From NCBI GenBank assembly GCA_964504685.1, contig CAZDGY010000001.1, forward strand, positions 1 to 34,059: a DNA stretch of 34,059 nt, read 5' to 3'. Below are positions 17,672 through 30,538 of the stretch, piece after piece. The translations under genes were made by a program, and so were the position numbers. The stretch comes from an uncultured Kofleriaceae bacterium (GTDB lineage Bacteria; Myxococcota_A; Polyangia; Haliangiales; Haliangiaceae). Position 1 is the first letter of the stretch. Each line of letters opens with the position of its first letter. Below the pieces are notes generated by a model that saw only the letters and a list, made by a program, of their open reading frames with translations, made no database searches and was not told the DNA's origin.

Positions 17672-17747
17672 CTGATCATCGTAGATCGAGAATTGAACCG
17701 ACCTCTCCCGGGATCTCTACAGAGGATTGACCGGCGCGTCGCTCAGC

Positions 17748-17765
17748 CGTCACACCGCCGCCATC
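17748..17765 (+). promoter_or_regulatory. Pho-box-like direct repeat upstream of the porin gene
   Basis: CGTCACA-CCGC-CGCCATC (7-4-7, 11-bp phasing). It is followed after 8 nt by TAAATG, and the porin ATG lies at 17790. It shares CCGTCACACC with the phoB site. Confidence 0.5.
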
Positions 17766-17789
17766 TAGCGCGGTAAATGTGCGTGGCGC

Positions 17790-19307
17790 ATGTCGACCTT
17801 CCGCCTTACCACCCTCGCGACTCTCCTCTTCGCCGCCGCGCCCGCGTTCGCGCAGCCGAGTGACACGCCGCCGCCGCCCCCGCCGGATGCGCCGACGCCA
17901 CCGACCCCGCCGACGCCGCCGACGCCACCCACCCCGCCGAGCGACTGGACGCCGCCGCCGCCGACCAACGAGAAACCGCCGGTGGAAGAGCCGGTGAAGC
18001 AGCAGCCGCCGCCGGCCGATCATCCGGCGTACACCATCGGTAGCAAGTGGGACGCGTCGCTGTACGGGTTCGTCGAGCTCGACATGATCAAGGACACCAC
18101 GCAGGGCTTGGTCGATCTCGCCGGTAACTCGGCGATTTCGCGGCCGAGCACGTACGCCGGCGATCACGGCCAGCTGTTGGTCGGTGCGCGCAACTCGCGC
18201 ATCGGGTTCAAGCTCGGCGCTCCCGCGTACGACGGCATCAAGGCGACCGCGCAGCTCGAGATGGACTTCCTCGGCAACCAGCCGGGCAAGCCGTTCGATT
18301 CGACCGGCCTCGTGTCGGAGTCCGCGTTCTGGCAGAACCCCGCGTTCCGCATCCGCCACATGAACGTGAAGCTCGAGATGCCGATGGATACCTACTTGCT
18401 CGCCGGTCAATACTGGGAGCTGTTCGGTTGGCAGTCGGCATTCCATCCGAACTCCGTGCAGATCCAAGGTCTGCCGGGCGAGGTTTACTCGCGCACGCCG
18501 CAGATCCGGCTCGGCAAGATCTTCAAGTCCGATGCGGTCAACGTCGATGTCGCGGTCGCCGCGCTGCGCTCGCCCGACCGGGCCTCGAGCACGCCGGACG
18601 GTCAGGCCGGCATCAAGCTGAGCATCAACCACTGGAAGGCGTGGCACACCGGCGGCTCGGCGAGCAGCGGTCTCGACGCCGCCCAGATCGGCGTGTCGGT
18701 CGACGGTCGCCGGTTCTCGGCCGATGCGTTCCCGGCGCAGAACAAGCAGGTCACGCGCAACGGCTACGGTTTGTCGATCGATGCGCTGATCCCGATCGTC
18801 GCCGCGACGAAGGAAAGCCGAGCGAACGCGCTCACGTTGACCGGTAGCTTCGTCACTGGCGCCGGCATCGCGGACCAATACACGAGCCTCAACGGCGGCG
18901 TGTCGAACCCGGCCGTGCCGAACCCGACGATGGCCGCGACCGCGCCGACCTATACCCCGAACATCGACTCGGGCCTCGCGATGTTCTACGCGAACGGCGA
19001 CGGCACCTATTCGCTCCACCCGATCCAGTGGACCTCGGAGATCGTCGGCCTGCAGTACTACCTGCCCCCTTCGGGCCGGCTGTTCCTCAGCGTCAACTAC
19101 TCGCACATGTCGTCGGGCAACGTTGACGATTTCGGGGCGCATAACAAGACGTTCAACGCGTCCCAGTTCGCCGACCTCAACGTGTTCTTCGACCTGACCC
19201 CGGCGGTGCGGTTCGGGCTGGAAGGTGCTTACATCGACCAGACTTACACCGACGGTACCGATGCCCCGGACTACCGGGCGCAACTCTCTGCCTTCTTCAT
19301 CTTCTGA
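17790..19307 (+). CDS. Outer-membrane beta-barrel porin (putative phosphate-regulated) with Pro/Thr-rich N-terminal linker
   Basis: Signal peptide (LLFAAAPAFAQ). Alternating amphipathic strands throughout and a C-terminal aromatic residue (...QLSAFFIF). It sits immediately upstream of phoBRU and has a Pho-box-like site in front. Confidence 0.7.
   Translation: MSTFRLTTLATLLFAAAPAFAQPSDTPPPPPPDAPTPPTPPTPPTPPTPPSDWTPPPPTNEKPPVEEPVKQQPPPADHPAYTIGSKWDASLYGFVELDMIKDTTQGLVDLAGNSAISRPSTYAGDHGQLLVGARNSRIGFKLGAPAYDGIKATAQLEMDFLGNQPGKPFDSTGLVSESAFWQNPAFRIRHMNVKLEMPMDTYLLAGQYWELFGWQSAFHPNSVQIQGLPGEVYSRTPQIRLGKIFKSDAVNVDVAVAALRSPDRASSTPDGQAGIKLSINHWKAWHTGGSASSGLDAAQIGVSVDGRRFSADAFPAQNKQVTRNGYGLSIDALIPIVAATKESRANALTLTGSFVTGAGIADQYTSLNGGVSNPAVPNPTMAATAPTYTPNIDSGLAMFYANGDGTYSLHPIQWTSEIVGLQYYLPPSGRLFLSVNYSHMSSGNVDDFGAHNKTFNASQFADLNVFFDLTPAVRFGLEGAYIDQTYTDGTDAPDYRAQLSAFFIF
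17895..17939 (+). repeat. In-frame tandem repeat encoding (TPP)x5 within the porin N-terminal Pro-rich linker
   Basis: Residues 36-50 read TPPTPPTPPTPPTPP, i.e. five 9-nt units with synonymous variation. The surrounding stretch 17865-17963 is also Pro-rich. Confidence 0.8.
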
Positions 19308-19316
19308 CCACCGAGC

Positions 19317-19334
19317 CGTCACACCAACGTCACC
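19317..19334 (+). promoter_or_regulatory. Pho-box-like direct repeat upstream of phoB
   Basis: CGTCACA-CCAA-CGTCACC. This is a near-perfect 7-bp direct repeat with a 4-bp spacer, resembling the enterobacterial Pho box CTGTCAT-N4-CTGTCAY. It lies 23 nt upstream of the phoB ATG. Confidence 0.6.
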
Positions 19335-19356
19335 GACGGCATGCTAAGGGTTGGCC

Positions 19357-20055
19357 ATGCTCGTACTGGTAATCGAGGACGAGACCGACCTGGCTACGAC
19401 GATCGAGTACAACCTCCGATCGGAAGGCTTCCAAGTCCGCCTCGCGCATAGCGGGCGCCAGGGTCTCGCAAGCGCGACCTCGGATCCACTGCCCGATGTG
19501 ATCGTGCTGGATCTGATGTTGCCCGACCTGTCCGGCACCGAGCTGTGCCGGCGGTTGCGCGAACAAGAGCGCACGCGCGACATCCCGGTCGTGATGTGCA
19601 CCGCGAAGGGCGAAGAGATCGATCGCGTGGTCGGCTTCGAAGTCGGCGCAGACGACTACATCGTCAAGCCGTTCTCGGTGCGCGAGCTGATCCTGCGGAT
19701 TCGCGCGCTACTCCGCCGCGTTCACCGCGTCGAAGGCGAGCCGTCGTTGATCCGGTTCGGCCGGCTCAAGATCGATCGCGATGCTCACCGCGCGTGGGTC
19801 GACGAAGCCGAGATCGGGCTGACCGCGCTCGAGTTCCGGTTGCTGCACGCGTTCCTGTCGCGGCGCGGCCGAGTTCAGACCCGTGACGCGTTGCTGTCGG
19901 ACGTGTGGGGCATCGACGCCGACGTCACGACTCGCACGGTCGACACGCACGTCAAGCGCCTGCGCGAGAAGCTCGGCGACGCGGGCGAATACATCGAGAC
20001 GCTGCGCGGTGTCGGCTATCGGTTCAAGGACCAGCCCGACGAGGCGACCGCGTGA
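19357..20055 (+). CDS. phoB: Phosphate regulon response regulator (OmpR/PhoB family)
   Basis: Receiver domain (VLVIEDE...VIVLDLMLPDLSG...VVMCTAKG...IVKPF) plus a winged-helix output domain (LTALEFRLLHAF...TVDTHVKRLREKL...LRGVGYRF). I prefer the ATG at 19357; the track ORF starts at a TTG at 19351. Confidence 0.9.
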   Translation: MLVLVIEDETDLATTIEYNLRSEGFQVRLAHSGRQGLASATSDPLPDVIVLDLMLPDLSGTELCRRLREQERTRDIPVVMCTAKGEEIDRVVGFEVGADDYIVKPFSVRELILRIRALLRRVHRVEGEPSLIRFGRLKIDRDAHRAWVDEAEIGLTALEFRLLHAFLSRRGRVQTRDALLSDVWGIDADVTTRTVDTHVKRLREKLGDAGEYIETLRGVGYRFKDQPDEATA

Positions 20056-21296
20056 TCGTACTCGCGGTCGTCTTGGCGCTCGCGCTATCCGGCGCGATCG
20101 TCGCGATCGCGTTGCAGCGGCGAGCGATGCAGCGATTCTCGGACGCGACGCGCGATGCCGTACGCGACCCGAGCAAGCGCGTGCCGACCGCGTCGACTGC
20201 GGGTCCGCTCCGGTCGCTCGGCGAATGGATCAATGCACTCGCTGAAGATGCCGAGCGTAGCCGCAACGCACTCGCGCACGAGCGGACGTTGCTCGCCTCG
20301 CTCGCAGATGGCTTGACCCAAGGCGTGATCGCGCTCGACGGCGATCAACGTATCGAGATGCTCAACGAAGCCGCGCGCCGGATGCTCGGCGTGACGAGCT
20401 CGCTCGTCGGCGAACCGTTGCTCGAGTTCGTGCGCGTGCCCGAGCTGCGCACGCTGATCGAGCACGCCGCCGATTCGAGCGCCGAGATCCAGCTGCCGAA
20501 CGGGCCGCGCACGCTGGTCCGCGCTGCGCGCACCTGGGGCCGAGCGGGCCGCGTGCTGCTGCTCGAGGACGTCACGACGATGCGCAGGCTCGAGACCGTG
20601 CGCCGCGACTTCGTCGCGAACGTCTCGCACGAGCTGCGCACGCCGGTCGCGGTGATTCGCGCGAATGCCGAGACTCTGCTCGCCGGCGCGAAAGACGATC
20701 CGGTGATCGCGAACAAGCTGATCGACGGCCTGCATCGCAACGCCGAACGGCTCGCCCGCATCCTCGCCGACTTGCTCGATCTGTCGCGGCTCGACGCCGG
20801 TCAATATCGGCTCGAGGTCGCGTCGGTGGCGGTGCTCGGCGTGACCGAGCAGTCGCTGACCGCGGTCGAGCCGCAGGCGCAGAAGCGCGGCGTGACCGTC
20901 GAGGTCGCGATCCCCGATTCGCTCGTCGTCCGCGCCGATCCGAAGGCACTCGACCAGATCCTGGTCAACCTGATCGATAACGGCGTGAAGTACACGCGCG
21001 CCGAAGGCCACGTCTGGGTCGAAGCCCGCGCGGTCGGCGACGCGGTGCGGATCGAAGTCCGCGACGATGGCCCGGGCATCGCCGACAAGCATCGCGAACG
21101 CGTGTTCGAGCGGTTCTATCGCGCCGATCCGTCGCGGTCGCGCGAAGCCGGCGGCACCGGCCTCGGCTTGTCGATCGTCAAGCACCTCGTCGAGAGTATG
21201 GGCGGCGAAGTCGGTGTCGAGGCCAACGCTCCTCGCGGTAGCATCTTCTGGCTTCGTCTTCCGAAGGCCGCACCTCAAACCCTGATGGCATCATGA
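20052..21296 (+). CDS. phoR: Phosphate regulon sensor histidine kinase
   Basis: The GTG at 20052 overlaps the phoB stop (GTGA). One TM helix, a PAS-like segment (LTQGVIALDGDQRIEMLNEAARRMLG), the H-box FVANVSHELRTPV, and the ATPase G-boxes DDGPGI and GGTGLGLSIVKH. Confidence 0.85.
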   Translation: MIVLAVVLALALSGAIVAIALQRRAMQRFSDATRDAVRDPSKRVPTASTAGPLRSLGEWINALAEDAERSRNALAHERTLLASLADGLTQGVIALDGDQRIEMLNEAARRMLGVTSSLVGEPLLEFVRVPELRTLIEHAADSSAEIQLPNGPRTLVRAARTWGRAGRVLLLEDVTTMRRLETVRRDFVANVSHELRTPVAVIRANAETLLAGAKDDPVIANKLIDGLHRNAERLARILADLLDLSRLDAGQYRLEVASVAVLGVTEQSLTAVEPQAQKRGVTVEVAIPDSLVVRADPKALDQILVNLIDNGVKYTRAEGHVWVEARAVGDAVRIEVRDDGPGIADKHRERVFERFYRADPSRSREAGGTGLGLSIVKHLVESMGGEVGVEANAPRGSIFWLRLPKAAPQTLMAS

Positions 21297-21982
21297 TGAC
21301 CACGCACACGAGTAAGGATTTCGAGCAAGAGCTGCGCACGTTGCGCGAGCGGCTCGCCGGCATGGGCGGCAAGTGCGAGCATCAGATCATCGCCGCGATG
21401 GAAGCGTTGACCGAGCGCAACGACGATCTCGCGAAGAAGGTCGTCGACGGCGACATGGCGATCGACCGCGACGAAAACGAGGTCGACGAGCTCGCGCTGC
21501 AGATCTTGGCGACGCGCCAACCGGTCGCGAGCGACCTGCGGTTCATCACGATGGCGCTCAAGTTCGTCACCGACCTCGAGCGGATCGGCGATCTCGCTGC
21601 AGGCATCGCGAAGCGCGCACTCGAGCTCAACCGGTTGCCGGTGCTGACGCCCCACGGCGACCTGACCGCGCTCGCGAGCCTCGTGCAAAAGAACCTGCGC
21701 GCCGCGCTCGACAGCTTCGTCGCCCGCGATGCCGACCGCGCGACCGCGGTGATGACCGCCGACCTCGAAGTCGACCGGCTCAACGCGAGCTTGTTCGCGG
21801 AGCTACTCGCGCACGTCGCGACCGACCCGGCGTCGGTGACCCGCGTGCTGCCGTTGACCTCGGTGTGCCGCTATCTCGAGCGCATCGGCGACCACGTCAA
21901 GAATATCTGCGAAGAAGTCGTGTACATGGTGCGCGCCCAAGACGTGCGCCATCGGCCGCCGCAAGTGCCGTCTGCGAACTGA
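21293..21982 (+). CDS. phoU: Phosphate signalling regulator PhoU
   Basis: Two PhoU repeats with D..I.R.E/ERIGD-type motifs (AIDRDENEVDEL...DLERIGDLA; EVDRLNASL...YLERIGDHVKNI). The start overlaps the phoR stop (ATGA). Confidence 0.9.
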   Translation: MMTTHTSKDFEQELRTLRERLAGMGGKCEHQIIAAMEALTERNDDLAKKVVDGDMAIDRDENEVDELALQILATRQPVASDLRFITMALKFVTDLERIGDLAAGIAKRALELNRLPVLTPHGDLTALASLVQKNLRAALDSFVARDADRATAVMTADLEVDRLNASLFAELLAHVATDPASVTRVLPLTSVCRYLERIGDHVKNICEEVVYMVRAQDVRHRPPQVPSAN

Positions 21983-21984
21983 CG

Positions 21985-22617
21985 CTAGGGCTTCGCCGGC
22001 GCCAAGATCGCGAGCCGCGCGTCGCACCAGGCGGTCCAATCGTTCGAAATCGACTGCTGCTTCGCAGTGTCCGCGCACACTCGATACTTTTCGGCTGCCG
22101 CGGTGAACAGTGGCTCGGCCTTGTCGGTCAACGCCTCGCAGAACGCCTTGGAGGCTTCGACCGCGAACTCACCGCGCCGAACGTTGCCGGGAATCTCCGC
22201 GGTCGCGAGCTCGTGGGCGAGCTCGTCGGTCACCTGGCCGAGGCGCGCCGCGACCTCGATCTTCTGTTCGTTCGTCGCCATGCCGAGAATGGCGGCGTAC
22301 TTGGTCGACAGCTGTTCCGCGGCTTGTGACTTCGCCGCGTACCAGTCGTTGAACCGCTTCGTGGCTCGCTGCAAGACGACCTTGTTGCCCGGGTCGAAAT
22401 CGAGCCCGGTCGGGAACGTGATCGCGAAATACTTCTTCAGCTCGCCATCGAGCGCGAGCACCGGCTCGTACTTGTCAGGCTTGGCCGCGAGCTTCACCGC
22501 GAACGGAGCCACATCGGCACCACAGTGGGTCGGCTTCGGATCGGCGTGAGCGATCGAAACGAGCGAACCGACGACGACGACGACGATGGCAGCTTTCATG
22601 CGGTTGAGGACACTCAT
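21985..22617 (-). CDS. Secreted four-Cys protein, paralog 1 of an unassigned family
   Basis: Trimmed to the ATG at 22617 (MSVLNRMKAAIVVVVVGSLVSIAHA); 22599 is the alternative. It aligns end to end by eye with the 25085..25687 and 25722..26408 products (shared ALDxEL..Y.AI.FP.GLDFDP, ARLGQ, FC..L.DKAEP, Y..C, NDW..WC.AR). Confidence 0.7.
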   Translation of the reverse strand: MSVLNRMKAAIVVVVVGSLVSIAHADPKPTHCGADVAPFAVKLAAKPDKYEPVLALDGELKKYFAITFPTGLDFDPGNKVVLQRATKRFNDWYAAKSQAAEQLSTKYAAILGMATNEQKIEVAARLGQVTDELAHELATAEIPGNVRRGEFAVEASKAFCEALTDKAEPLFTAAAEKYRVCADTAKQQSISNDWTAWCDARLAILAPAKP

Positions 22618-22654
22618 CGCACGAATCGGTTGCTGCCGCGGGTACCATCGCCGC

Positions 22655-24598
22655 ATGCGATGGATCCTGGTGTTGATGGTCGCGGTCGCAGCCGCGTGTG
22701 GCAGCTCGAAGCAGTCGAGCGAGGACAACGTTGCGAAAGGCAGCGCGAAGCCTGCCGCCCCACCGGTCGAGGCGCCGATGCCGATCACGTTCGGCGATTG
22801 CGGCTCGGGAGCGTTCGTATCGGGCCCGCGGCCGTTGCCGCTGACTGGCAGAGACGATGACGATCCGCCACCGCCCCCTGAAGAAGACAAAGACGAGTCC
22901 GGTGGCACCGGCACGGCGATGGCGCTCGACGAAGGCAAGATGGGGCGCAAGCCTGGCGAGTACCACATGCGCGACGAGCAGCTCGCGCGTCAACAAGCGA
23001 TCGAGGCGGCGCGTTCGGCGGGCATCCTCGGCACGGTCGCGAGGCGCGACGCAAGCGACGAGATCGGCATCTTCAGCGAGCTGCCCGGCGCCGCGGTGAA
23101 CCTCGCGGCCGGCGCTCGTTCGTTCGGCATCCTCGGCGACGGCTTCGCCGGCCATGACAGCCCGGTCGGGTCACACGCGGGCGGGCCAGCCGTAGCGATC
23201 GGTTCGCCAAGCGCCCAGTCCACGAGCGACAAGGACATGATCCGTCGCTACATCCATCGGAACATCTCGAAGGTCACGTACTGCTACGAGAAACAACTGT
23301 TGGTGAAGCCGACGCTCGCCGGCACGGTCACGGTGAAGTTCTTCATCACGCCGAACGGCAGCGTCACGAACGCAACTGCGACCGGTCTCGATCCCGCGGT
23401 CTCGTCTTGTGTCGCGAAGTTCATCGCCGACATCAAGTTCGCGAAGCCGGGTGGCGGCGGCGGCATTCAGGTGTCGTACCCGTTTACGTTTCGGCCAGCG
23501 GGCGATGACCCCAAGCCGGCGATCGGCAGCAACTCGCCGCCTGCGACCGACAGCGCCGCCGCGCCCGCGACCGGTAGCGGCTCGGCCACACCGACGCCAG
23601 CGCCGGCGCCGACTCCTGCGCCGGCGCTGTTCCGCGCCGACAGTATCTCTGCAGAGTCGTACCAAACGGGCATTAACAACCCGCTGCAAATCGAGCAAGC
23701 GGCGCTCGCGAAGTGCTTGCGCAGCAACCCGAAGCCATACGGCGTTGCGGTGGTCGAGCTCGTCGGACACGACACGAAGGTGTATGGCATCGACGACAGC
23801 AACGTGGCCGCTTGTGTCGTCGAGGTCGGCAAGCACGTCCTGGCCATCACGGGGCCGCCGCGCTGTTCATTCGCGTACGGCGTGATGCCGCCCGAAGCGC
23901 TGCCGACGCTCGACCTCACCGCAGACGCCGTGACGTTCGCCGGTAAGCCACTCGCGACCGCGCAGGCGATCGCAGCGACCGATGCGACGCCCGCAGCGCA
24001 GGTCGCCGACGCGATTAGCGCGACGGTCACAGCAGCGCTCGCGCCGAGCGCGCCGGTCGTCGCGATTCACGGCCCGGTCGTCGTTCGGCCCGTGGACGCG
24101 ACCTCGATCAAGCTCCTCACCCGCGTGCTCGCTGGTGTGCTCGCGAGCGGCGATGACTTCGTGCTCGCGGCGCAGCGCGGCGGCGATTGGCAGCTCCTCG
24201 AAAAGCTCCCGCTGCCCGTCGTTCCGGTGCCGCTCGGCACCGGCGGTCGGTGGAATCGCATCAAGGGCAGCCCGACGCGCGGCGGACCGCGCTCGCACGT
24301 CCGGTTGTCGCTGTTAATCGGCAAGGACGCGATCTGGATCAGCGGATTCACGGGCACCGATCCGGTCTCGATTCCTCGCGACGCAAAGCAGTGGGACGCG
24401 CTCGGCAAGGCGCTCAAAGACGTCAAGATGCATGCGGGGATCGGGCTCGGCGACATCGAGCTCGCGGGCGACGACGACGCGAGCTACAGCGACCTCGTCC
24501 ACGCAATCGACGCGGTGAAGGCCGCCGGCATCTCCGACTGGGAGCTCACCGATCCGCAGGCGCTCGCCGAGCCGCTGCCGCCACGCCCCAAGCCGTGA
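22655..24598 (+). CDS. Lipoprotein with AgmX/PglI-type TonB-C-like domain and two ExbD/TolR-like periplasmic domains
   Basis: Trimmed to the ATG at 22655 (MRWILVLMVAVAAACG). The central segment MIRRYIHRNISKVTYCYEKQLLVKPTLAGTVTVKFFITPNGSV...SCVAKFIADIKFAKPGGGGGIQVSYPFTF matches the myxobacterial AgmX/PglI C-terminal (TonB-C-like) pattern. The C-terminal ..IELAGDDDASYSDLVHAIDAVKAAGISDWEL is ExbD/TolR-like, with a weaker copy upstream (VVVRPVDATSIKLLTRVLAGVLASG). Confidence 0.7.
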   Translation: MRWILVLMVAVAAACGSSKQSSEDNVAKGSAKPAAPPVEAPMPITFGDCGSGAFVSGPRPLPLTGRDDDDPPPPPEEDKDESGGTGTAMALDEGKMGRKPGEYHMRDEQLARQQAIEAARSAGILGTVARRDASDEIGIFSELPGAAVNLAAGARSFGILGDGFAGHDSPVGSHAGGPAVAIGSPSAQSTSDKDMIRRYIHRNISKVTYCYEKQLLVKPTLAGTVTVKFFITPNGSVTNATATGLDPAVSSCVAKFIADIKFAKPGGGGGIQVSYPFTFRPAGDDPKPAIGSNSPPATDSAAAPATGSGSATPTPAPAPTPAPALFRADSISAESYQTGINNPLQIEQAALAKCLRSNPKPYGVAVVELVGHDTKVYGIDDSNVAACVVEVGKHVLAITGPPRCSFAYGVMPPEALPTLDLTADAVTFAGKPLATAQAIAATDATPAAQVADAISATVTAALAPSAPVVAIHGPVVVRPVDATSIKLLTRVLAGVLASGDDFVLAAQRGGDWQLLEKLPLPVVPVPLGTGGRWNRIKGSPTRGGPRSHVRLSLLIGKDAIWISGFTGTDPVSIPRDAKQWDALGKALKDVKMHAGIGLGDIELAGDDDASYSDLVHAIDAVKAAGISDWELTDPQALAEPLPPRPKP

Positions 24599-24599
24599 G

Positions 24600-25073
24600 C
24601 TACGAACAGCCCTTAGCGAGCGGGTTGTCCAAGCACTCCTGTCTGATGTGCACGCCCTTCGCGCGCTCGGCGTGATCGGCCACTTCTTTCGTCGCGGCGA
24701 TCTCGGCCTGAGCCGCAGCGAGCTGTTTCTGAAGCTCCGCGAGCCTGGCCCGTGCAGCGTTCCTCTCGGCATCGGTCTTCGCGTTCGCGATCATCTTGAT
24801 CGCCGCGTCGAGCTTGGCCTGTTGCGCGTCGAACGCCTTCTCCGCTTTGGCGAACTTGTCGGCAGCGAGCTCGGCGTCCGCTTGCGCCTTCTTCGCTTCG
24901 GCCAGCGCGGCCTCTAGCTTTTGCTGCGCGTCGGCGTGCTCGGCGCGCGCGCGCTCCACCGCCTGGTCGACGGTCGGCGCGGCCGCCGATCCTTGCGGCG
25001 CAGCATCGTTGTTGTTGCCATGACACGCGCTGATCGCGAGAGCCGTGACGAATCCGAGCATGCTCGATCGCAT
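24600..25073 (-). CDS. Coiled-coil lipoprotein (Ala/Lys/Glu/Gln-rich)
   Basis: Trimmed to the ATG at 25073 (MRSSMLGFVTALAISAC, lipobox). About 110 aa of heptad-like AEAKKAQADAELAADKFAKAEKAF... sequence, ending in a Cys pair (QECLDNPLAKGCS). It is 11 nt downstream of paralog 2. Confidence 0.65.
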   Translation of the reverse strand: MRSSMLGFVTALAISACHGNNNDAAPQGSAAAPTVDQAVERARAEHADAQQKLEAALAEAKKAQADAELAADKFAKAEKAFDAQQAKLDAAIKMIANAKTDAERNAARARLAELQKQLAAAQAEIAATKEVADHAERAKGVHIRQECLDNPLAKGCS

Positions 25074-25084
25074 GCCCGACCGTA

Positions 25085-25687
25085 CTACGGCGTCGCGGTC
25101 AATGCGGCGATCCGCGCGTCGCACAGCTTCGACCATTCGTTCGACACCGCGAGTCGGGTCGCGCGCTCGGCGCAGGCTTTGTACTTCTCGAGACTCGACT
25201 CGAGGATATCTTGCGCCTTGTCGGCGAGCGTATCGCAATAGGCTTCGGTGGCTTCGGCGGCAAACTCCCCCCGCCGGATGCTGGACGGAACCTCGGCGGT
25301 GAGCAGCGTGTCGGCGAAGTGCTCGGTGAGCTGACCGAGTCGAGCCGCCGCTGCGATCTGTTGTGGCCACGTCGCGGTCGCGAGCAGCGCGCCGTACTTG
25401 CCGGCGAGCACTTGCGAAGCGTCGGTCTTCGCGACGAACCAGCTCGTGAACCGCTTCGCGCTCGCAGCCGCCACCGCCGGCTTGTCGGGATCGAAGTCGA
25501 GCCCGGTCGGGAACGCGATCGCGAGGTAATGCGCGAGCTCCGGATCGAGCGCACGCACCGGATCGTGCGATGGCGGTTGTTTCGCGACGTCGATCGCGAG
25601 ACCCGGGCGACCGTCGCCGCAATGGGTCGGCGGGCCCGCAAACGCGGTAGCGCTGGACAGCACGAGTACGAGCGCGGCGATCTTCAT
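25085..25687 (-). CDS. Secreted four-Cys protein, paralog 2 of an unassigned family
   Basis: Signal peptide MKIAALVLVLSSATAFA. Same motif set and Cys positions as the 21985..22617 product. Confidence 0.75.
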   Translation of the reverse strand: MKIAALVLVLSSATAFAGPPTHCGDGRPGLAIDVAKQPPSHDPVRALDPELAHYLAIAFPTGLDFDPDKPAVAAASAKRFTSWFVAKTDASQVLAGKYGALLATATWPQQIAAAARLGQLTEHFADTLLTAEVPSSIRRGEFAAEATEAYCDTLADKAQDILESSLEKYKACAERATRLAVSNEWSKLCDARIAALTATP

Positions 25688-25721
25688 GGCTCACCGACAC
25701 GGTCGATGACATCGAGTTGCG

Positions 25722-26408
25722 CTATTTCGCAGCCGGCTCCGGCATGATCACGGGCGCGGCGCGCGGCGGACCGAGCAATTCTTCTCGCATCGGGTAGTTC
25801 TCGGGCGAGAGCTGGTTGAGCCGGAGCTCGCACCACGCCGACCACTCGTTCGCGACCAAGGCCGTCGTCGCGTGCTGAAGGCAATGGTCGTAGTAATAAA
25901 CCGCGCGCTCCTGCAACGGCTCGGCCGCTTCGGTCATCGTGTCGCAAAACGCAGCCGCGCGATCCTCCGCGTCCGGCGTGGTGAAGACCTGATCGGGGAT
26001 CGGCTCGACGAACAGCGACGCGGCATAGTCGTCGATGATCTGGCCCATTCGCGCGTACGCCTCGATCGCGCGATCCGGCGAGACGACAGCGGCCGCTGCC
26101 ATGTACTTCGCGGTCAACGCCTGCGCGCTGGCATTCTTGCGCTGCGCCCATGCGTTCAACCACGCCGCGCTGCGCCGTCGCATCGCCGGTTCATTCGGGT
26201 TGAAGTCGAGCCCTTTCGGGATCGCGAGCGCGAAGTACGCGAGCAACTCGCGGTCGAGCGCCGCGATCGGATCCCCGTTCGGCGCACGGACTTGGCGGGT
26301 CACCCGGGCTTGACGTGTCATCGACGCAGGGCCACAGGCCTTTGGCACGCCCCCGGGATTCGCACTCGCGGTCGCGGTCATGGCAGCGAGCAGCGCCAGA
26401 GATCTCAT
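25722..26408 (-). CDS. Secreted four-Cys protein, paralog 3 (more divergent) of an unassigned family
   Basis: Signal peptide MRSLALLAAMTATASA. It retains ALDRELLAYFALAIPKGLDFNP, ARMGQ, FCDTMTEAAEP, YDHC and NEWSAWCELR, and has a Pro-rich C-terminal tail. Confidence 0.7.
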   Translation of the reverse strand: MRSLALLAAMTATASANPGGVPKACGPASMTRQARVTRQVRAPNGDPIAALDRELLAYFALAIPKGLDFNPNEPAMRRRSAAWLNAWAQRKNASAQALTAKYMAAAAVVSPDRAIEAYARMGQIIDDYAASLFVEPIPDQVFTTPDAEDRAAAFCDTMTEAAEPLQERAVYYYDHCLQHATTALVANEWSAWCELRLNQLSPENYPMREELLGPPRAAPVIMPEPAAK

Positions 26409-26478
26409 GCCATCACGACACGTTCGGGGTCGATTGGTTGCGGGAGCTGGGGCCCACTCGTCGGGATCCCGCTGGCGT

Positions 26479-26496
26479 CGTCACCGTCCCGACACA
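26479..26496 (+). promoter_or_regulatory. Pho-box-like direct repeat upstream of pstS
   Basis: CGTCACC-GTCC-CGACACA (7-4-7). A further in-phase half-site-like TGCCACC lies at 26512-26518, 33 nt from the first half-site. The pstS ATG is at 26541. Confidence 0.55.
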
Positions 26497-26540
26497 TTCG
26501 GGCCGCCGAGGTGCCACCGTCGGTGACTACGGTCGGGGCA

Positions 26541-27638
26541 ATGAAGACCTCGATGCATTTCCTGATCGGCGCGTTTGCGATCGCGGCGCTGTCGACCTCG
26601 TGCAAGAAGAAGGCGGACGACGGCGGCGGCAACGCCAAGACCATCGAAAGCACCGGAGACAAGAAAGCCGGCGACAAGCCGACCGGCGGCTCGGTGACGC
26701 TCAACGGCAGCGGGTCGACGTTTCAAAAATCGTTCGACGAGGTGTGCATCGAAGCGTTCACGAAGGCGAACGCCGGCACTCAGATCAACTACGCGGGAGG
26801 CGGTTCCGGCAAGGGCCGCAAGGACCTCGGCGACATGGTCGTCGACTTTGCCGGCTCGGACTCGCCGTTCAAGGACGAAGAGGCCAAGAACGCGAAGGGC
26901 GGCGACCTGCTGTACTTCCCGGTCCTGCTCGGCGCCGTGACGATCAGCTACAACCTCGACGGCGTCGACAAGCTGCAGCTATCGGGCGAGACCGCGGCGA
27001 AGATCTTTCAGCGCGATATCAAGAAGTGGAACGACCCGGCGATCACTGCGGATAACCCGGGCGTCAAGCTGCCGGACACCGACATCGTCGTCGCGCACCG
27101 CGGCGATGGCTCGGGCACGACCGACATCTTCACGAAGTTCCTCGACGGCGGCTCGAACGGCACGTGGAAGCTCAAGAGCGGCTCGACCGTCGAATGGCCG
27201 ACCGACACGCAAGCGGGCCAGGGCAACGGCGGCGTCGCACAGATCGTCAAGAGCACGGCGGGCGCGGTCGGTTACGTCGACCTGTCCGATGCGAAGCAGA
27301 CCGGGCTGCACTACGCCGCGGTGAAGAACGGCGCCGGCAAGTTCGTCGAGGCGAACGCGGCCTCGGTCTCGGCCGCCGGCGAAGGCATCGACGTCAAGGA
27401 CAACCTGACGTTCAGCGCGGTCAACGCGAAGGGTGACGCGGCGTACCCGGTCACCGGTCAGACCTGGATCGTCGTCTACGCGAAGCAGACCGACAAGGCC
27501 AAGGGCGAGGCGATCAAGAGCTTCCTCAAGTTCGTGCTCACCGATGGTCAGAAGCTCGCGACCGACGTCGACTACGCGCCGCTGCCGAAACCGCTCGCGG
27601 ACAAGGCGATCGCGCAGCTGGACAAGATCAAGACCTGA
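26541..27638 (+). CDS. pstS: Phosphate ABC transporter substrate-binding lipoprotein
   Basis: Trimmed to the ATG at 26541 (MKTSMHFLIGAFAIAALSTSC, lipobox). PstS motifs: LNGSGSTFQ, INYAGGGSGKG, FAGSDSPF, VAHRGDGSGTT. The upstream 223 codons of the track ORF are an artefact that overlaps paralog 3. Confidence 0.9.
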   Translation: MKTSMHFLIGAFAIAALSTSCKKKADDGGGNAKTIESTGDKKAGDKPTGGSVTLNGSGSTFQKSFDEVCIEAFTKANAGTQINYAGGGSGKGRKDLGDMVVDFAGSDSPFKDEEAKNAKGGDLLYFPVLLGAVTISYNLDGVDKLQLSGETAAKIFQRDIKKWNDPAITADNPGVKLPDTDIVVAHRGDGSGTTDIFTKFLDGGSNGTWKLKSGSTVEWPTDTQAGQGNGGVAQIVKSTAGAVGYVDLSDAKQTGLHYAAVKNGAGKFVEANAASVSAAGEGIDVKDNLTFSAVNAKGDAAYPVTGQTWIVVYAKQTDKAKGEAIKSFLKFVLTDGQKLATDVDYAPLPKPLADKAIAQLDKIKT

Positions 27639-27645
27639 GGCACCA

Positions 27646-28593
27646 GTGGCCGGCATCGACCTACGTAGCAAAGGCGACCGCGCGGATCGAACGTTCCGCT
27701 GGCTCGCGATCGGCGCGGCGGCGCTCGTGTTGCTCGTGCTCGGGTTGATCGCGCTGACGATGTCGACCCGATCGACCGCCGTCCTCGAGAAGATGGGGTT
27801 GGGATTCTTCACGTCGGACCGCTGGGTCGCGAACGACAACGATCCGAGCCAAGCGCTCTACGGTGCGTTGCCGTTCATCTGGGGCACGCTGTACACCGCG
27901 ACGATCGCGGTCATCCTCGCGGTGCCGATCAGCCTCGGTATCGCGCTGTTCATCACCCAGGTCGCGCCCGCGAAGTTGCGCCGCCCGCTCGTCTACTTCG
28001 TCGATCTGCTCGCGGTCGTGCCGTCGGTCGTCTACGGCCTATGGGGCGTGCTCGTGCTCGCGCCGAAGATCAAGGGCGTCTACGACTCGATCCACAACGC
28101 GGTCGATGGCATCCCGGTGCTGCAATCGATCTTCGGCTCGGCTTCGGCCGGCAAGTCGTTCATGACCGCGGGCGTGATCCTAGCGATCATGATCATCCCG
28201 ATCATCACGTCGCTCGCGCGCGAGGTGATCGAGACGACGCCGCCGGGCGAGAAGGAAGCAGCGCTCGCGCTTGGAGCGACGCGCTGGGAGATGATCCGAA
28301 CGTCCGTGCTGCCGCACAGCCGCGTCGGTTTGGTCGGCGCCGTGATGCTCGGCCTCGGCCGCGCGATGGGCGAGACGATCGCCGCGACGCTCGTGATCGG
28401 CGGCTCGGCCGCAGTCACGACCAACCTGTTCGGCTCCGGCAACTCGATGCCCGCGATCATCGCGAGCGAATGGGGCGAAGCCGGCGACCTCCACAAGTCG
28501 GCGCTGATCGCGCTCGCGATGACGCTGTTCCTGATCACGATCGCGGTGAACCTGATCGCGACGCGGATCGTCGGCGCGAAGAGGATCGCATGA
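27646..28593 (+). CDS. pstC: Phosphate ABC transporter permease PstC
   Basis: GTG at 27646, 7 nt after the pstS stop. Multi-TM protein with the EAA-type loop EAALALGATRWEMIRTSVLP. Confidence 0.88.
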   Translation: MAGIDLRSKGDRADRTFRWLAIGAAALVLLVLGLIALTMSTRSTAVLEKMGLGFFTSDRWVANDNDPSQALYGALPFIWGTLYTATIAVILAVPISLGIALFITQVAPAKLRRPLVYFVDLLAVVPSVVYGLWGVLVLAPKIKGVYDSIHNAVDGIPVLQSIFGSASAGKSFMTAGVILAIMIIPIITSLAREVIETTPPGEKEAALALGATRWEMIRTSVLPHSRVGLVGAVMLGLGRAMGETIAATLVIGGSAAVTTNLFGSGNSMPAIIASEWGEAGDLHKSALIALAMTLFLITIAVNLIATRIVGAKRIA

Positions 28594-29612
28594 TCGAGCC
28601 ACCTGTCGCGATCGACCTTCGGGCGCGCCCGAGCTGGCGCCACGTCAAGAGCAACATCTTCACCGGCTTGATGCTCGCCGCGCTGCTGCTCGTCGCGATC
28701 CCGCTCGTCTTCGTGTTGGCATCGGTAATCGATAAGGGGGCGGGCTCGGCGTTCAAGGACGCACCGCTCACGCCGATCCCACTCGTCATCGGCTTGGGGA
28801 TTTTACTGTTCCGCGGCATCAAGTCGCGCGTCGGGTTGGTGGTCACCGGCATCGGGCTCGTCATCGTTATCGTTTGCGTCGCGACGGATTCGACCGTCTT
28901 GCCCGCGTTCTTCACCGCCGCGATCCCGAAGGTCTCGTTCCGGCCAGGACCCGGCATGGGGCCGGCGATCGTCGGCACGTTACTCGTCACCGGCGGCGCG
29001 ACCCTGATCGCGGTCCCGCTCGGCATTCTCGGAGCGGTGTATCTCCACGAGTACGGCGGCCGATCGGCGTTCGCGCGTCTCGTCAGGTTCATGGCGGTCG
29101 TGATGACCGGCGTGCCTTCGGTCGTGATGGGGTTGTTCGTCTACATCACGTGGACGCTCAACTTCGGCTACTCCGCGTTCGGGGGCGCGCTAGCGCTCGC
29201 GTGCTTGATGCTGCCGGTCGTGATCGGCACGACCGAACAGATGCTGAAGCTCGTGCCGAATCATCTGCGCGAGGCGTCGTATGCGCTCGGCGCTAGCAAG
29301 GCGCGCACGATCCTCACCGTCGTGTTGCCCGCAGGTCTTCCCGGCATCGTCTCGGGCTGCTTGCTCGCGGTCGCGCGCGCTGCAGGTGAGACCGCCCCGC
29401 TGCTGTTCACGGTCGGCGCGTCGACCGCCTACAACTTGCACTTCTTCGACGGCGCGAACAACGCACTGCCGCCGCAGATCTTCGAGAACGCAAAGGCTGC
29501 CGCGGTCGCTCAGAACGATCGCGCCTGGGGTGCGGCGCTCACGCTCATTCTCCTGACGTTCTTGATCACGTTGATCGCGCGCATCGTCACGGCGCGGTTT
29601 GCGAAGAGGTAG
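28590..29612 (+). CDS. pstA: Phosphate ABC transporter permease PstA (with extra hydrophobic insertion after TM1)
   Basis: The ATG at 28590 overlaps the pstC stop (ATGA). EAA loop [20 protein letters not shown], plus the conserved [22 protein letters not shown] segment. Confidence 0.88.
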
Positions 29613-29635
29613 CTCAGTTGCCAACCGAGGATCCC

Positions 29636-30538
29636 ATGGTCGTAGAACAAACCCGCACGAGCGAAGACAAGCCCCGCCCCGCGGCGGCGAGCCCGCGTTC
29701 GAACCCGGTCCAGGTACCAGAGGTCCGCGCGAGCATGGTCGCGATCCTCGACTCCGCGCCGGCGGTGTTCGACGTCAACGGGCTCGAGGTGTTCTACGGC
29801 GCGTACCGCGCGGTCCGCGACGTCACGCTGCAGGTGCGCAAGAACCAGATCACCGCGTTCATCGGACCGTCGGGCTGTGGCAAGACGACCGTGCTGCGCT
29901 GCTTCAACCGGATGAACGATCTGGTCCAGGGCGCGCGCGTCGCCGGCAGCGTCAAGTATCACGGCACCGAGCTCTACGGCCCTGACGTCTCGGCGACCGA
30001 AGTTCGCCGGCGCATCGGCATGGTGTTTCAGAAGCCGAACCCGTTTCCGAAGAGCATCTACGACAACATCGCGTTCGGCCCGCGGATCAATGGCGTCACC
30101 GATCGCAGCAAGCTCGACGAGATCGTCGAGAAGTCGCTGCGCGCCGCCGCGCTGTGGGACGAGGTCAAGGATCGGCTGAAGAGCTCGGCGGTCGGCATGT
30201 CGGGCGGCCAGCAGCAACGGTTGTGCATCGCTCGCACGATCGCGGTCGAGCCCGAAGTGGTGCTGATGGACGAGCCGTGCAGCGCGCTCGATCCGATCGC
30301 GACCGCACGGGTCGAAGACTTGATGCGCGCGCTCAAGAGCCGGTTCACGATCGTGATCGTCACGCACAACATGCAGCAAGCGGCACGCGTCAGCGATCGC
30401 ACCGCGTTCTTCACTGCCGAGGTGTCGAAGACCGAGCAGCGGTGCGGTGTGCTCGTCGAATACGATCACACGTCGAAGATCTTCTCGAATCCCAAAGACG
30501 AACGGACCGAGAACTACATCACCGGCCGCTTCGGCTGA
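29636..30538 (+). CDS. pstB: Phosphate ABC transporter ATP-binding protein
   Basis: Walker [10 protein letters not shown], signature MSGGQQQRL, Walker B VVLMDEP, H-loop VTHNMQQA. I prefer the ATG at 29636 (GAGGA 5 nt upstream). The track start is a TTG at 29618, and an internal ATG at 29735 is also possible. Confidence 0.9.

What the first reader, a model, noticed from the sequence alone, without database searches (positions are those of the whole stretch)
21985..26408. Pho regulon split by a ~4.5-kb cluster: three paralogous secreted four-Cys proteins, a TonB-C/ExbD-like lipoprotein and a coiled-coil lipoprotein
phoB-phoR-phoU (19357-21982) and pstSCAB (26541-30538) are co-oriented but separated by five non-Pho genes.

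Three of these (21985-22617, 25085-25687, 25722-26408; all minus strand) are clearly alignable ~200-aa secreted proteins. They share a signal peptide, an N-terminal xCG, and the motifs ALDxEL..Y.AI.(F/I)P.GLDF(D/N)P, KY, AR(L/M)GQ, (F/Y)C(E/D)..(L/M)..(K/A)A(E/Q), Y..C and N(D/E)W(S/T).(W/L)C(D/E).R. Four Cys are positionally conserved, suggesting two disulfides. I cannot place this family in any named domain from memory.

Between them lie two more genes. One is a 647-aa lipoprotein combining an AgmX/PglI-type TonB-C-like domain with two ExbD/TolR-like periplasmic domains but no energising TM helix. The other is a 157-aa coiled-coil lipoprotein co-transcribed with paralogs 2 and 3 (11-nt and 34-nt gaps).

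Together this looks like an uncharacterised envelope/periplasmic module. It may belong to the phosphate-starvation response or be a Tol/Glt-like accessory.
Basis: partly seen in the sequence, partly recalled or inferred. Interest (0 to 1): 0.72.

Follow-up and report, generated by a model that had tools for sequence, protein, structure and literature searches.

The report
Gliding-machine protein fragments inserted in phosphate operon
A soil myxobacterium (Kofleriaceae-like) carries, wedged between its phosphate-sensing and phosphate-uptake genes, five envelope genes that are mostly stand-alone copies of pieces of two gliding-machinery proteins (GltD and GltG); the insertion is real but confined to one genus, and nothing here shows it responds to phosphate.

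Summary
phoBRU and pstSCAB are separated by five genes, and three of them are clear paralogs with four invariant Cys.

The paralogs are not an orphan family. A profile finds 1404 relatives. The domain is the C-terminal, non-TPR helical domain of ~1150-1250-aa TPR proteins. These proteins occupy the GltD position in glt-like clusters of Haliangiales and Kofleriaceae (GltC-X-GltE-GltF-GltG). Many stand-alone secreted copies also exist.

Residues ~60-285 of the 647-aa lipoprotein are homologous to the periplasmic end of GltG, meaning the linker plus the TonB-like C-terminal domain (E 1e-110 to 1e-131). A second, degenerate TonB-C-like domain follows, then an ExbD/TolR-like domain.

In 7 related contigs phoU abuts pstS directly. 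The insertion is therefore confined to one genus. Its gene content varies between genomes, and it evolves fast while still under purifying selection (dN/dS 0.21-0.44, against 0.008-0.2 for the pho/pst genes). It has no Pho box of its own.

Best reading: a motor-less periplasmic module derived from Glt proteins, whose parts probably bind each other, or the cell's own Glt machinery, as GltD binds GltG. That it belongs to the Pho regulon is unproven.

The parts
17790..19307 (+). 505-aa secreted protein that looks like an outer-membrane barrel. It is probably a Pho-regulated porin. This is flanking context, not part of the insertion.
   Evidence: It has a signal peptide, a Pro-rich N-terminus, a C-terminal ...FFIF, and no Pfam hit. 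A Pho-box-like site lies upstream at 17738-17753. Homologs of 48-58% identity sit next to phoB in L073 and L077.
19318..19333 (+). Pho-box-like direct repeat, GTCACaccaacGTCAC, upstream of phoB.
   Evidence: Exact match to GTCAC-N6-GTCAC, found. The sequence was read.
19351..21982 (+). phoB (19351-20055), phoR (about 20052-21296) and phoU (21293-21982).
   Evidence: Pfam hits. The proteins are 96-100% identical to those of L001 and L002.
21985..22617 (-). par1: a secreted stand-alone homolog of the GltD C-terminal domain. It has an SPase-I signal (...AHA|DP) and four Cys, and lacks the GltD-type tail.
   Evidence: Its stop is 2 nt from the phoU stop (convergent genes). dN/dS is 0.21.
22655..24598 (+). 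647-aa lipoprotein (lipobox VAAAC, Cys15).
   Evidence: Read directly from the sequence. AF2 model with mean pLDDT 73. 474 family members with E <= 0.001 among the candidates scored, many annotated Kofleriaceae.
22856..23503 (+). GltG-derived periplasmic region of the lipoprotein (residues about 68-283). It comprises a linker segment and TonB-C-like domain A, of AgmX/PglI type (residues 179-280).
   Evidence: NF033768 scores 77.6 bits, above the cutoff of 40. BLASTP gives 54-66% identity to the C-termini of GltG-like proteins, and residues 68-169 match GltG_L036 residues 581-690 (E 2e-18). Family-profile positions 53-311 match the last ~280 residues of three GltG-like proteins (E 1e-110 to 1e-131).
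23666..23989 (+). Second, degenerate TonB-C-like domain (residues 338-445).
   Evidence: hhalign of domain A against this region gives probability 91.6%, E 8e-7. The AF2 secondary structure is consistent and pLDDT exceeds 90.
24305..24550 (+). ExbD/TolR-like periplasmic domain (residues about 551-632).
   Evidence: Pfam ExbD scores 19.5 bits, below the cutoff. The same Pfam family is precomputed for several homologs. Foldseek finds TolR 5by4 and ExbD 8pek, 8vgd and 8p9r at probability about 1.0, though the tool does not report which residues aligned.
24600..25073 (-). 157-aa coiled-coil lipoprotein (lipobox ISAC) with a conserved C-terminal motif, KGVxIxxECxDNPLAKGCS.
   Evidence: It is absent from L001 and present in L002 and L004. 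Family members elsewhere sit in unrelated contexts.
25085..25687 (-). par2: a secreted stand-alone homolog of the GltD C-terminal domain.
   Evidence: The AF2 model has pLDDT 87.5 and is all-alpha, with 35-residue helices. dN/dS is 0.22.
25722..26408 (-). par3: a secreted homolog of the GltD C-terminal domain that keeps the GltD-type C-terminal tail (25725-25808; CELRLNQLSPENYPMREE...). It is the only paralog intact in all four genomes.
   Evidence: The tail motif is present in 47 of 47 GltD-like proteins.
26480..26495 (+). Pho-box-like repeat, GTCACcgtcccGACAC, of the pstS promoter. It lies inside the 132-bp divergent spacer between par3 and pstS.
   Evidence: It is conserved at the same distance from pstS in the related contigs that lack the insertion (5 of the 7 carry the motif by regex).
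26541..30538 (+). pstS (26541-27638), pstC (about 27640-28593), pstA (28590-29612) and pstB (29618-30538).
   Evidence: Pfam hits and tblastn synteny.

Best explanation
The 4.4-kb block is a genus-specific insertion into an otherwise contiguous phoBRU-pstSCAB cluster.

What it encodes:
- Three secreted proteins, par3 and the sister pair par1/par2, arranged (par3,(par1,par2)). Each is a stand-alone copy of the C-terminal non-TPR helical domain of GltD-family TPR proteins, the central periplasmic 'pillar' of the Agl-Glt/Nfs-type envelope machines.
- A lipoprotein whose N-terminal half is the periplasmic end of GltG: the linker that lies on GltD in structural models, plus the TonB-like C-terminal domain. 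Here it hangs from a lipid anchor, not from GltG's FHA domain and transmembrane helix. It is extended by a second TonB-C-like domain and an ExbD/TolR-like domain.
- A small coiled-coil lipoprotein.

Shown: the homologies, the domain architecture, the restriction of the insertion to one lineage, its variable gene content, and fast evolution under purifying selection.

Inferred: the par proteins and the lipoprotein bind each other, or bind the cell's real GltG/GltE and GltD, through the same interfaces as GltD and GltG. Having no motor or transmembrane part, they would act as a passive periplasmic scaffold or as a modulator or competitor of a Glt/Tol-like machine. They would not transduce energy.

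Their position next to the Pho-box-bearing pstS promoter allows phosphate-dependent expression of the par3 operon but does not demonstrate it.
For: 1. Domain identity. The A2 profile finds 1404 proteins at E <= 1e-3. In 47 genome loci the domain is the last ~180-230 residues of 1118-1413-aa TPR proteins. In the three loci examined, these proteins sit beside NCBIfam-recognised Glt proteins: GltC and GltG in L011, GltC, GltE, CglF/GltF and GltG in L018, and GltG in L036. In L018 the order, GltC(667)-X(1155)-GltE(467)-GltF(85)-GltG(786), has the gene order and sizes of M. xanthus gltD-E-F-G (1191, 471, 89 and 640 aa; PMC3169522).

2. Shared motifs and Cys. C172 and C189 are present in 47 of 47 GltD-like domains, C151 in 36 of 47, and C23 in 34 of 47 (the rest are gaps). 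par3 keeps the GltD-type tail motif found in 47 of 47.

3. Structure. The AF2 model of par2 (pLDDT 87.5) is all-helical with 35-residue helices. Foldseek finds no PDB match better than E 0.1 or TM 0.3. This agrees with the 'non-TPR helical domains' flanking the GltD TPR core in PMC11761067.

4. The lipoprotein. Family-profile positions 53-311 match the C-terminal ~280 residues of three GltG-like proteins at E 1e-110 to 1e-131. The TonB-C-like domain is 54-66% identical to theirs. The second TonB-C-like domain is supported, and the TolR/ExbD-like fold.

5. Published AlphaFold model (PMC11761067, read). GltG residues 428-543 lie in a GltD crevice. GltE binds the GltD C-terminal domain. The complex was built as 'GltDct/GltGmedium/GltE'.

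6. Insertion. phoU is followed directly by pstS in L072-76, L084 and L088. The pstS Pho box is ancestral.

7. The genes are functional but fast-evolving. dN/dS is 0.21-0.44 and amino-acid identity 61-82%, while the flanking genes are 88-100% identical.
Against:
- In the published model the GltG TonB-like domain docks on the N-terminal domain of GltD, which the par proteins lack. Only the linker contact would carry over.
- L002 has par3 and cc without the lipoprotein, and L001 lacks cc. The components therefore do not depend on one another.
- Homologs of the lipoprotein and of cc occur elsewhere without par-like neighbours.
- Identifying protein X as GltD rests on synteny and size in Haliangiales and Kofleriaceae. 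The NCBIfam Glt hits there fall below their equivalog cutoffs, and the M. xanthus GltD sequence itself was not available to test.
- The window does not show whether this organism has a Glt machine at all.
Confidence: 0.55

Rival explanations
1. One reading: the five genes are true members of the Pho regulon. They would form an envelope module induced by phosphate starvation, for example to remodel the periplasm or assist phosphate capture, and they were recruited between phoU and pstS for co-regulation.
For: - The block lies exactly between phoU and pstS in all four genomes of the genus.
- The par3-par2-cc operon starts 72 bp from the conserved Pho-box-like repeat in the shared 132-bp spacer with pstS.
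- Packing is extremely tight. Convergent stops lie 1-2 nt apart, so phoBRU read-through would be antisense to par1.
Against: - phoU and pstS are adjacent in 7 related contigs, so the Pho system works without these genes.
- The Pho box belongs to the ancestral pstS promoter and is oriented for pstS.
- No Pho-box-like site with 1 mismatch or fewer exists anywhere else in 21900-26600, and in particular none lies in the par1/lipoprotein spacer.
- Four of the five genes are antisense to pho/pst.
- Gene content varies between genomes, and par1 is decaying in L002.
- Relatives of each component lie in contexts without pho genes.
- None of the domains has a phosphate-related function.
Confidence: 0.2
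2. The block is evolutionary debris. Partial duplicates of gltD and gltG landed in a permissive intergenic site and are drifting toward loss, with no function of their own.
For: - Gene content differs in the three related genomes (L001, L002, L004; the window has the same five genes as L004), and L002 has an internally deleted par1.
- dN/dS is 2- to 50-fold higher than in the flanking genes. Identity is only 61-82% where the neighbours are 88-100%.
- GC3 is slightly lower than in the pho/pst genes.
Against: - dN/dS of 0.21-0.44 still indicates purifying selection.
- The ORFs, signal peptides, lipoboxes, all four Cys and the motifs are intact across genomes with dS of about 0.5.
- The three paralog lineages each predate the divergence of the genus.
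- Stand-alone secreted versions of the domain are a large, widespread family.
Confidence: 0.12
3. These are fast-evolving periplasmic decoy or immunity-type proteins. Mimics of the GltD, GltG, TonB-C and ExbD surfaces would intercept toxins, phage proteins or predator effectors that parasitise Tol/TonB/Glt-type machines.
For: - Divergence is elevated compared with the neighbours, and gene gain and loss varies by lineage.
- Every part is a motor-less copy of an interaction domain of an envelope machine.
- L001 has an extra Cys-rich secreted gene in the block.
Against: - No toxin, immunity, mobility or phage genes lie in or near the block.
- There is no evidence of positive selection, since gene-wide dN/dS is below 0.5.
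- The idea rests on analogy alone.
Confidence: 0.08

Closest known systems
GltD (AgmU, MXAN_4870) / NfsD family: the periplasmic TPR 'pillar' of the Myxococcus Agl-Glt gliding machine and the Nfs spore-coat machine.
   Same: - The par proteins share the whole C-terminal helical domain with the proteins that occupy the GltD position in glt-like clusters. This includes the FPxGLDF, AARxGQ, AEIP, YCD...AEPL and WSxxCE motifs, the Cys pattern and, in par3, the PxxYPxxxE tail.
- They are secreted to the periplasm, as GltD is.
   Different: - The par proteins are 200-228 aa against about 1200 aa.
- They lack the N-terminal helical domain (the docking site for the GltG and GltJ TonB-like domains and for GltC in PMC11761067) and the TPR core.
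- They are not encoded in a glt cluster.
- They are present as three paralogs.
- They have an SPase-I signal. PMC11761067 numbers mature GltD from Cys1, which I read as a lipoprotein.
GltG (PglI, MXAN_4867) and GltJ (AgmX): inner-membrane, TolA/TonB-like transducers of the Agl motor.
   Same: Residues about 60-285 of the lipoprotein align with the last ~280 residues of GltG-like proteins, covering the linker and the AgmX/PglI TonB-like C-terminal domain.
   Different: - It has no FHA domain and no transmembrane helix, so it cannot couple to AglRQS as proposed for GltG.
- It is lipid-anchored instead.
- It carries an extra TonB-C-like domain, an alpha/beta domain and an ExbD/TolR-like domain at its C-terminus.
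Periplasmic domains of ExbD/TolR and the TonB C-terminal domain (Tol-Pal and Ton systems).
   Same: Fold-level matches to TolR 5by4, ExbD 8pek, 8vgd and 8p9r, and TonB-CTD 6sly. Weak Pfam ExbD and TonB_C hits.
   Different: - The scores fall below the Pfam gathering cutoffs.
- There is no membrane-embedded Asp-bearing helix and no partner ExbB/TolQ gene nearby.
- All domains sit in one lipoprotein.
Unannotated stand-alone secreted proteins and lipoproteins of Myxococcota that carry the same domain (for example P0015-P0017, P0187, P0206, P0234, P0238).
   Same: They have the same domain, the same ~200-240-aa size, a signal peptide or lipobox, and the Cys pattern.
   Different: - They form a separate clade and end in GWWDAVC without the final helix or tail.
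- Three sampled loci lie between a 4HBT_3 thioesterase gene and a glyoxalase gene, not near pho or glt genes.

Membership tests
GltD/AgmU-family C-terminal domain (par1, par2, par3) | Significant sequence homology to the C-terminal domain of the ~1200-aa TPR proteins encoded at the gltD position. | tested here: met
   tblastn gives 25-39% identity, E 1e-11 to 7e-36, to 55 loci. In 47 of them the match is the C-terminus of a 1118-1413-aa ORF. hmmsearch gives E down to 1e-50. The motifs and Cys are shared.
GltD/AgmU-family C-terminal domain (par1, par2, par3) | Those ~1200-aa proteins really are GltD: they are encoded with gltC, gltE, gltF and gltG, and have a TPR core flanked by non-TPR helical domains. 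| tested here: met
   L018 has GltC-X-GltE-CglF/GltF-GltG. L011 has GltC-X...GltG. L036 has X...GltG. TPR Pfam hits fall only in the central part. Caveat: the NCBIfam Glt scores are below the equivalog cutoffs (for example GltG 376 against 650), so these may be Glt- or Nfs-type paralogous systems.
GltD/AgmU-family C-terminal domain (par1, par2, par3) | A match to the experimentally studied M. xanthus GltD (MXAN_4870) itself. | not testable with these tools
   No M. xanthus sequence was retrievable. The representative library carries no names, and the genome scan was restricted to set peptide patterns.
Full-length GltD (functional membership in the gliding machine) | An N-terminal helical domain and a TPR core, about 1200 aa, encoded in a glt cluster. 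| tested here: not met
   The par proteins are 200-228 aa and consist of the C-terminal domain only. Their neighbours are pho/pst genes.
AgmX/PglI C-terminal (TonB-like) domain proteins (647-aa lipoprotein) | NF033768 scores above its curated cutoff. | tested here: met
   77.6 bits against a cutoff of 40, residues 192-280.
GltG (equivalog) | Full-length match to NF033760, including the FHA domain and transmembrane helix. | tested here: not met
   92 bits against a cutoff of 650. Only profile positions 543-650 match. The N-terminus is a lipoprotein signal and there is no FHA domain.
ExbD/TolR (PF02472) | A Pfam gathering score, plus an N-terminal transmembrane helix with the conserved Asp. | tested here: not met
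   19.5 bits against a cutoff of 25.4, covering only the periplasmic part (profile positions 73-124). The fold resemblance to TolR and ExbD is supported. There is no transmembrane helix.
Pho regulon | The gene has its own PhoB-binding site, or shows phosphate-dependent expression. | tested here: inconclusive
   The only Pho-box-like site with 1 mismatch or fewer in 21900-26600 is the ancestral pstS box, in the spacer shared with par3. Expression cannot be tested here.
   The paralogs give no TPR hit. The helices are 23-36 residues long. The best Foldseek hits (14-3-3 proteins) have E >= 0.1 and TM below 0.3.

The most novel reading that the evidence does not exclude
A motor-less periplasmic complex derived from the Glt machine has been taken over by the Pho regulon of one Kofleriaceae lineage. 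The complex would consist of three GltD C-terminal-domain paralogs, a lipid-anchored GltG periplasmic module with added TonB-C-like and ExbD-like domains, and a coiled-coil lipoprotein. Under this reading, phosphate starvation would switch on proteins that dock onto the cell's Glt/Nfs/Tol-type envelope machine, or compete with it. Nutrient status would thereby be linked directly to gliding, sporulation or envelope mechanics.
Probability: 0.1. Interest if true: 0.65.

Novelty: new variant of a known kind. Interest (0 to 1): 0.4.

Why it matters
1. It defines a widespread domain that has no annotation. The domain has 1404 representative proteins and no Pfam or NCBIfam model. It is both the C-terminal module of GltD-position proteins and a common stand-alone secreted protein in Myxococcota. 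This gives annotators a handle and gives people who study gliding a naturally excised domain to work with.

2. The same island holds GltD C-terminal copies and a GltG periplasmic copy. That is independent, comparative support for the GltD-GltG periplasmic contact, which so far rests only on AlphaFold models of the M. xanthus machine. It also offers small soluble proteins with which to test that contact biochemically.

3. It tempers the Pho interpretation. The split of the pho/pst cluster is a recent insertion in one genus, not a conserved feature of the regulon.

Tried and rejected
- Pfam and NCBIfam scans of the paralogs gave nothing, or noise only (BAGE at E 0.079, Psb32 at E 0.12).
- The PDB sequence search with profile A1 returned designed WRAP-T repeat proteins (E 2.7e-4, no stretch passing on its own). 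I rejected these as compositional matches.
- The PDB sequence search with the lipoprotein family profile gave no hit.
- Foldseek of the par2 model against the PDB gave only weak 14-3-3 or designed-repeat matches (E >= 0.1, TM below 0.3). I did not treat these as homology.
- The word-indexed homolog search found only 17 relatives, which at first suggested an orphan family. The exhaustive profile search and the genome scan overturned that.
- The search for related loci with the 17-sequence alignment failed because no block was conserved enough. I repeated it with the par3 subgroup.
- The sigma-70 promoter and intrinsic-terminator scans were uninformative in this 66% GC DNA.
- The count of Pho-box pattern matches in the window is not above chance (5 observed against 3.6 expected). 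Only position and cross-lineage conservation give three of the sites any meaning.
- I tested for a second ExbD-like domain by comparing domain profiles. C against D was not significant, while A against B was.
- The contexts of lipoprotein homologs and of cc homologs were checked for par or pho linkage. None was found, apart from one weak hit in L008 (E 7.8e-4).

Full report
**1. Observation**

- phoB (19351-20055), phoR (about 20052-21296) and phoU (21293-21982) lie on the + strand.
- pstS (26541-27638), pstC, pstA and pstB (to 30538) also lie on the + strand. All have the expected Pfam domains.
- Between them lie five genes: par1 (21985-22617, -), a 647-aa lipoprotein (22655-24598, +), a 157-aa coiled-coil lipoprotein (24600-25073, -), par2 (25085-25687, -) and par3 (25722-26408, -).

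The three par proteins align over their full length at 49% and 33% identity to par1. Each has an SPase-I type signal peptide (AHA|DP, AFA|GP, ASA|NP), read directly from the sequence. Codon-position GC (GC3 0.81-0.84) and dN/dS below 1 show that these are real genes. Packing is very tight. The stops of phoU and par1 are 2 nt apart, and those of the lipoprotein and cc are 1 nt apart.

**2. What the paralogs are**

Curated libraries give nothing. The word-indexed search found only 17 relatives, which looked like an orphan family. That impression came from the search method.

A scan of one genome per species with the par3 subgroup found 56 loci in Kofleriaceae, Haliangiales, Polyangiales, Sandaracinus and other Myxococcota. 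The exhaustive profile search found 1404 representative proteins at E <= 1e-3, and 581 at E <= 1e-10.

In 47 of the genome loci the match is the last ~180-230 residues of an ORF of 1118-1413 aa. The central part of these ORFs is TPR-rich. Their C-terminal region has no Pfam or NCBIfam model.

These large proteins sit at the gltD position.
- In L018 (a Haliangium MAG) the order is GltC(667)-X(1155)-GltE(467)-CglF/GltF(85)-GltG(786).
- In L011 it is GltC-X...GltG.
- In L036 it is X...GltG.

This matches the sizes and order of M. xanthus gltD-E-F-G: 1191, 471, 89 and 640 aa (PMC3169522). The 47 GltD-like C-termini share the par motifs and Cys pattern.

par3 also keeps the tail C[ED]x[RK]L...Pxx[YF]PxxxE, which is present in 47 of 47 GltD-like proteins. 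par1 and par2 have lost it.

The AF2 model of par2 (pLDDT 87.5) is a bundle of long helices (35, 23, 36 and 15 residues) with no convincing PDB match. This fits the published description of GltD as a TPR core flanked by non-TPR helical domains (PMC11761067).

The domain also occurs in other settings:
- mid-protein in ~750-930-aa TPR proteins;
- at the C-terminus of ~450-575-aa proteins, one of them directly after the GltD-like gene in L036;
- as many stand-alone ~210-260-aa secreted proteins or lipoproteins.

A neighbour-joining tree without bootstrap support places the window's paralogs as one clade, (par3,(par1,par2)). Each paralog has orthologs in sister genomes, so the duplications predate the divergence of the genus.

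**3. The 647-aa lipoprotein**

It starts with a lipobox (VAAAC). Residues 192-280 pass the AgmX/PglI C-terminal domain model, at 77.6 bits against a cutoff of 40.

Positions 53-311 of the family profile match the last ~280 residues of the three GltG-like proteins at E 1e-110 to 1e-131. BLASTP gives 54-66% identity in the TonB-like domain. The preceding linker (residues 68-169) matches GltG_L036 residues 581-690 at E 2e-18. The N-terminal half is therefore the periplasmic end of GltG on a lipid anchor, without GltG's FHA domain or transmembrane helix.

The AF2 model (mean pLDDT 73; the folded domains exceed 90) shows four folded units after the disordered linkers.
- Residues 338-445 are a second, degenerate TonB-C-like domain (hhalign against the first: probability 91.6%, E 8e-7).
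- Residues about 551-632 give a sub-threshold Pfam ExbD hit. Foldseek's top matches are TolR, ExbD and TonB-CTD structures.

The family has 474 members with E <= 0.001 among the candidates scored, many annotated Kofleriaceae. It occurs in unrelated contexts.

**4. The coiled-coil lipoprotein**

It has a lipobox (ISAC), an Ala/Lys/Gln-rich coiled coil, and a strongly conserved C-terminal motif, KGVxIxxECxDNPLAKGCS. The motif is shared with a small family that includes 259-aa membrane-anchored versions. Three sampled family members lie in unrelated contexts.

**5. Relation to the Pho genes**

Seven related metagenome contigs (PhoU 65-79% identical) have phoU followed directly by pstSCAB. The split is therefore a derived insertion.

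It is seen only in the window and three close relatives (PhoB 99.6%, PstS 91-93% identical). Even there the content differs:
- L004 has all five genes.
- L001 lacks cc and has an extra Cys-rich 241-aa gene.
- L002 has only par3, cc and an internally deleted par1.

The Pho-box-like repeat GTCACCGTCC[CG]G[TA]CAC lies upstream of pstS in most of the related contigs that lack the insertion (5 of 7 by regex). It belongs to the ancestral pstS promoter. Similar repeats precede phoB and the porin-like gene. No other site with 1 mismatch or fewer lies in 21900-26600. par3 shares the 132-bp spacer with that box, so Pho influence on the par3-par2-cc operon is possible but unproven.

The inserted genes evolve much faster than their neighbours. 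Amino-acid identity is 61-82% against 88-100%, and dN/dS is 0.21-0.44 against 0.008-0.2. They remain under purifying selection.

**6. Mechanism**

Shown: the island consists of excised interaction modules of two partners in the Glt machine, plus TonB-C-like and ExbD-like domains. It contains no motor, no transmembrane segment and no energy-coupling part.

From the literature (PMC11761067): in the AlphaFold model of the M. xanthus machine, GltG residues 428-543 fold into a crevice along GltD. GltE binds the GltD C-terminal domain. The sub-complex was modelled as GltDct/GltGmedium/GltE.

Inferred: the par proteins bind the GltG-like linker of the lipoprotein, or the cell's own GltG and GltE. The lipoprotein may in turn bind GltD-like proteins. 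Together they would form a passive scaffold or a modulator or competitor of a Glt/Nfs/Tol-type machine.

Weak points:
- The published docking site of the TonB-like domain is the N-terminal domain of GltD, which the par proteins lack.
- The components do not always co-occur.
- No multimer prediction could be run.

**7. Comparison and novelty**

The parts belong to known families (GltD, GltG/AgmX-PglI, ExbD/TolR fold). They are not members of the functional classes: none is a full GltD, a GltG equivalog, or a canonical ExbD.

New here:
- recognition of the GltD C-terminal domain as a discrete, widespread module absent from Pfam and NCBIfam, which often occurs alone;
- the GltG periplasmic module as a lipoprotein;
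- their co-location in a genus-specific insertion inside the pho/pst cluster.

I rate this a new variant of a known kind, of moderate interest (0.4). The Pho-regulon reading stays open at about 0.2.

Noticed in passing
window 17738-19307: A 505-aa secreted protein that looks like an outer-membrane barrel. It has a Pro-rich PPTPP repeat N-terminus, a C-terminal FFIF, and no Pfam hit. A Pho-box-like repeat lies just upstream. Homologs of 48-58% identity sit next to phoB in L073 and L077, but divergently oriented. It is probably an unannotated phosphate-starvation porin.
   Followed up: partly
window 24600-24660 (C-terminus of the coiled-coil lipoprotein): The C-terminal motif KGVxIxxECxDNPLAKGC[SNT] has two Cys and is almost invariant in a small family. 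The family includes 259-aa membrane-anchored proteins that JGI labels 'colicin import membrane protein' (P0293 and others). The motif's function is unknown.
   Followed up: partly
L001 10636-11361 (-): A sister genome has an extra 241-aa, very Cys-rich, repeat-like secreted gene between par1 and phoU, and lacks the coiled-coil gene.
   Followed up: no
L002 11413-11733 (+): A par1 ortholog with a clean internal deletion (106 aa). Its N-terminal ~50 residues are fused to the last ~58, which points to ongoing decay of the island in that genome.
   Followed up: yes
L036 9812-11539 (+): The 575-aa TPR gene directly downstream of the GltD-like gene also ends in the same domain (hmmsearch E 2.3e-41). 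Some glt-like clusters therefore carry the domain twice.
   Followed up: partly
window 21982-21985 and 24598-24600: Convergent gene pairs (phoU/par1 and lipoprotein/cc) have stop codons only 2 nt and 1 nt apart, and no terminator-like structure. Transcription from either side would be antisense to the partner gene.
   Followed up: no
L005-L007: Distant stand-alone homologs of the domain (P0015, P0017) are always flanked by a 4HBT_3 thioesterase gene and a glyoxalase gene. This conserved micro-synteny is unrelated to pho or glt genes.
   Followed up: no
window 23030-23180 (lipoprotein residues ~125-175): The family consensus has a Gly-rich linker (GAFASLTGTGDISSGFDD...GWGTIGTGRYGTIGHG) that is shared with GltG. 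In the window's copy this segment is strongly diverged, and its pLDDT is below 50.
   Followed up: no
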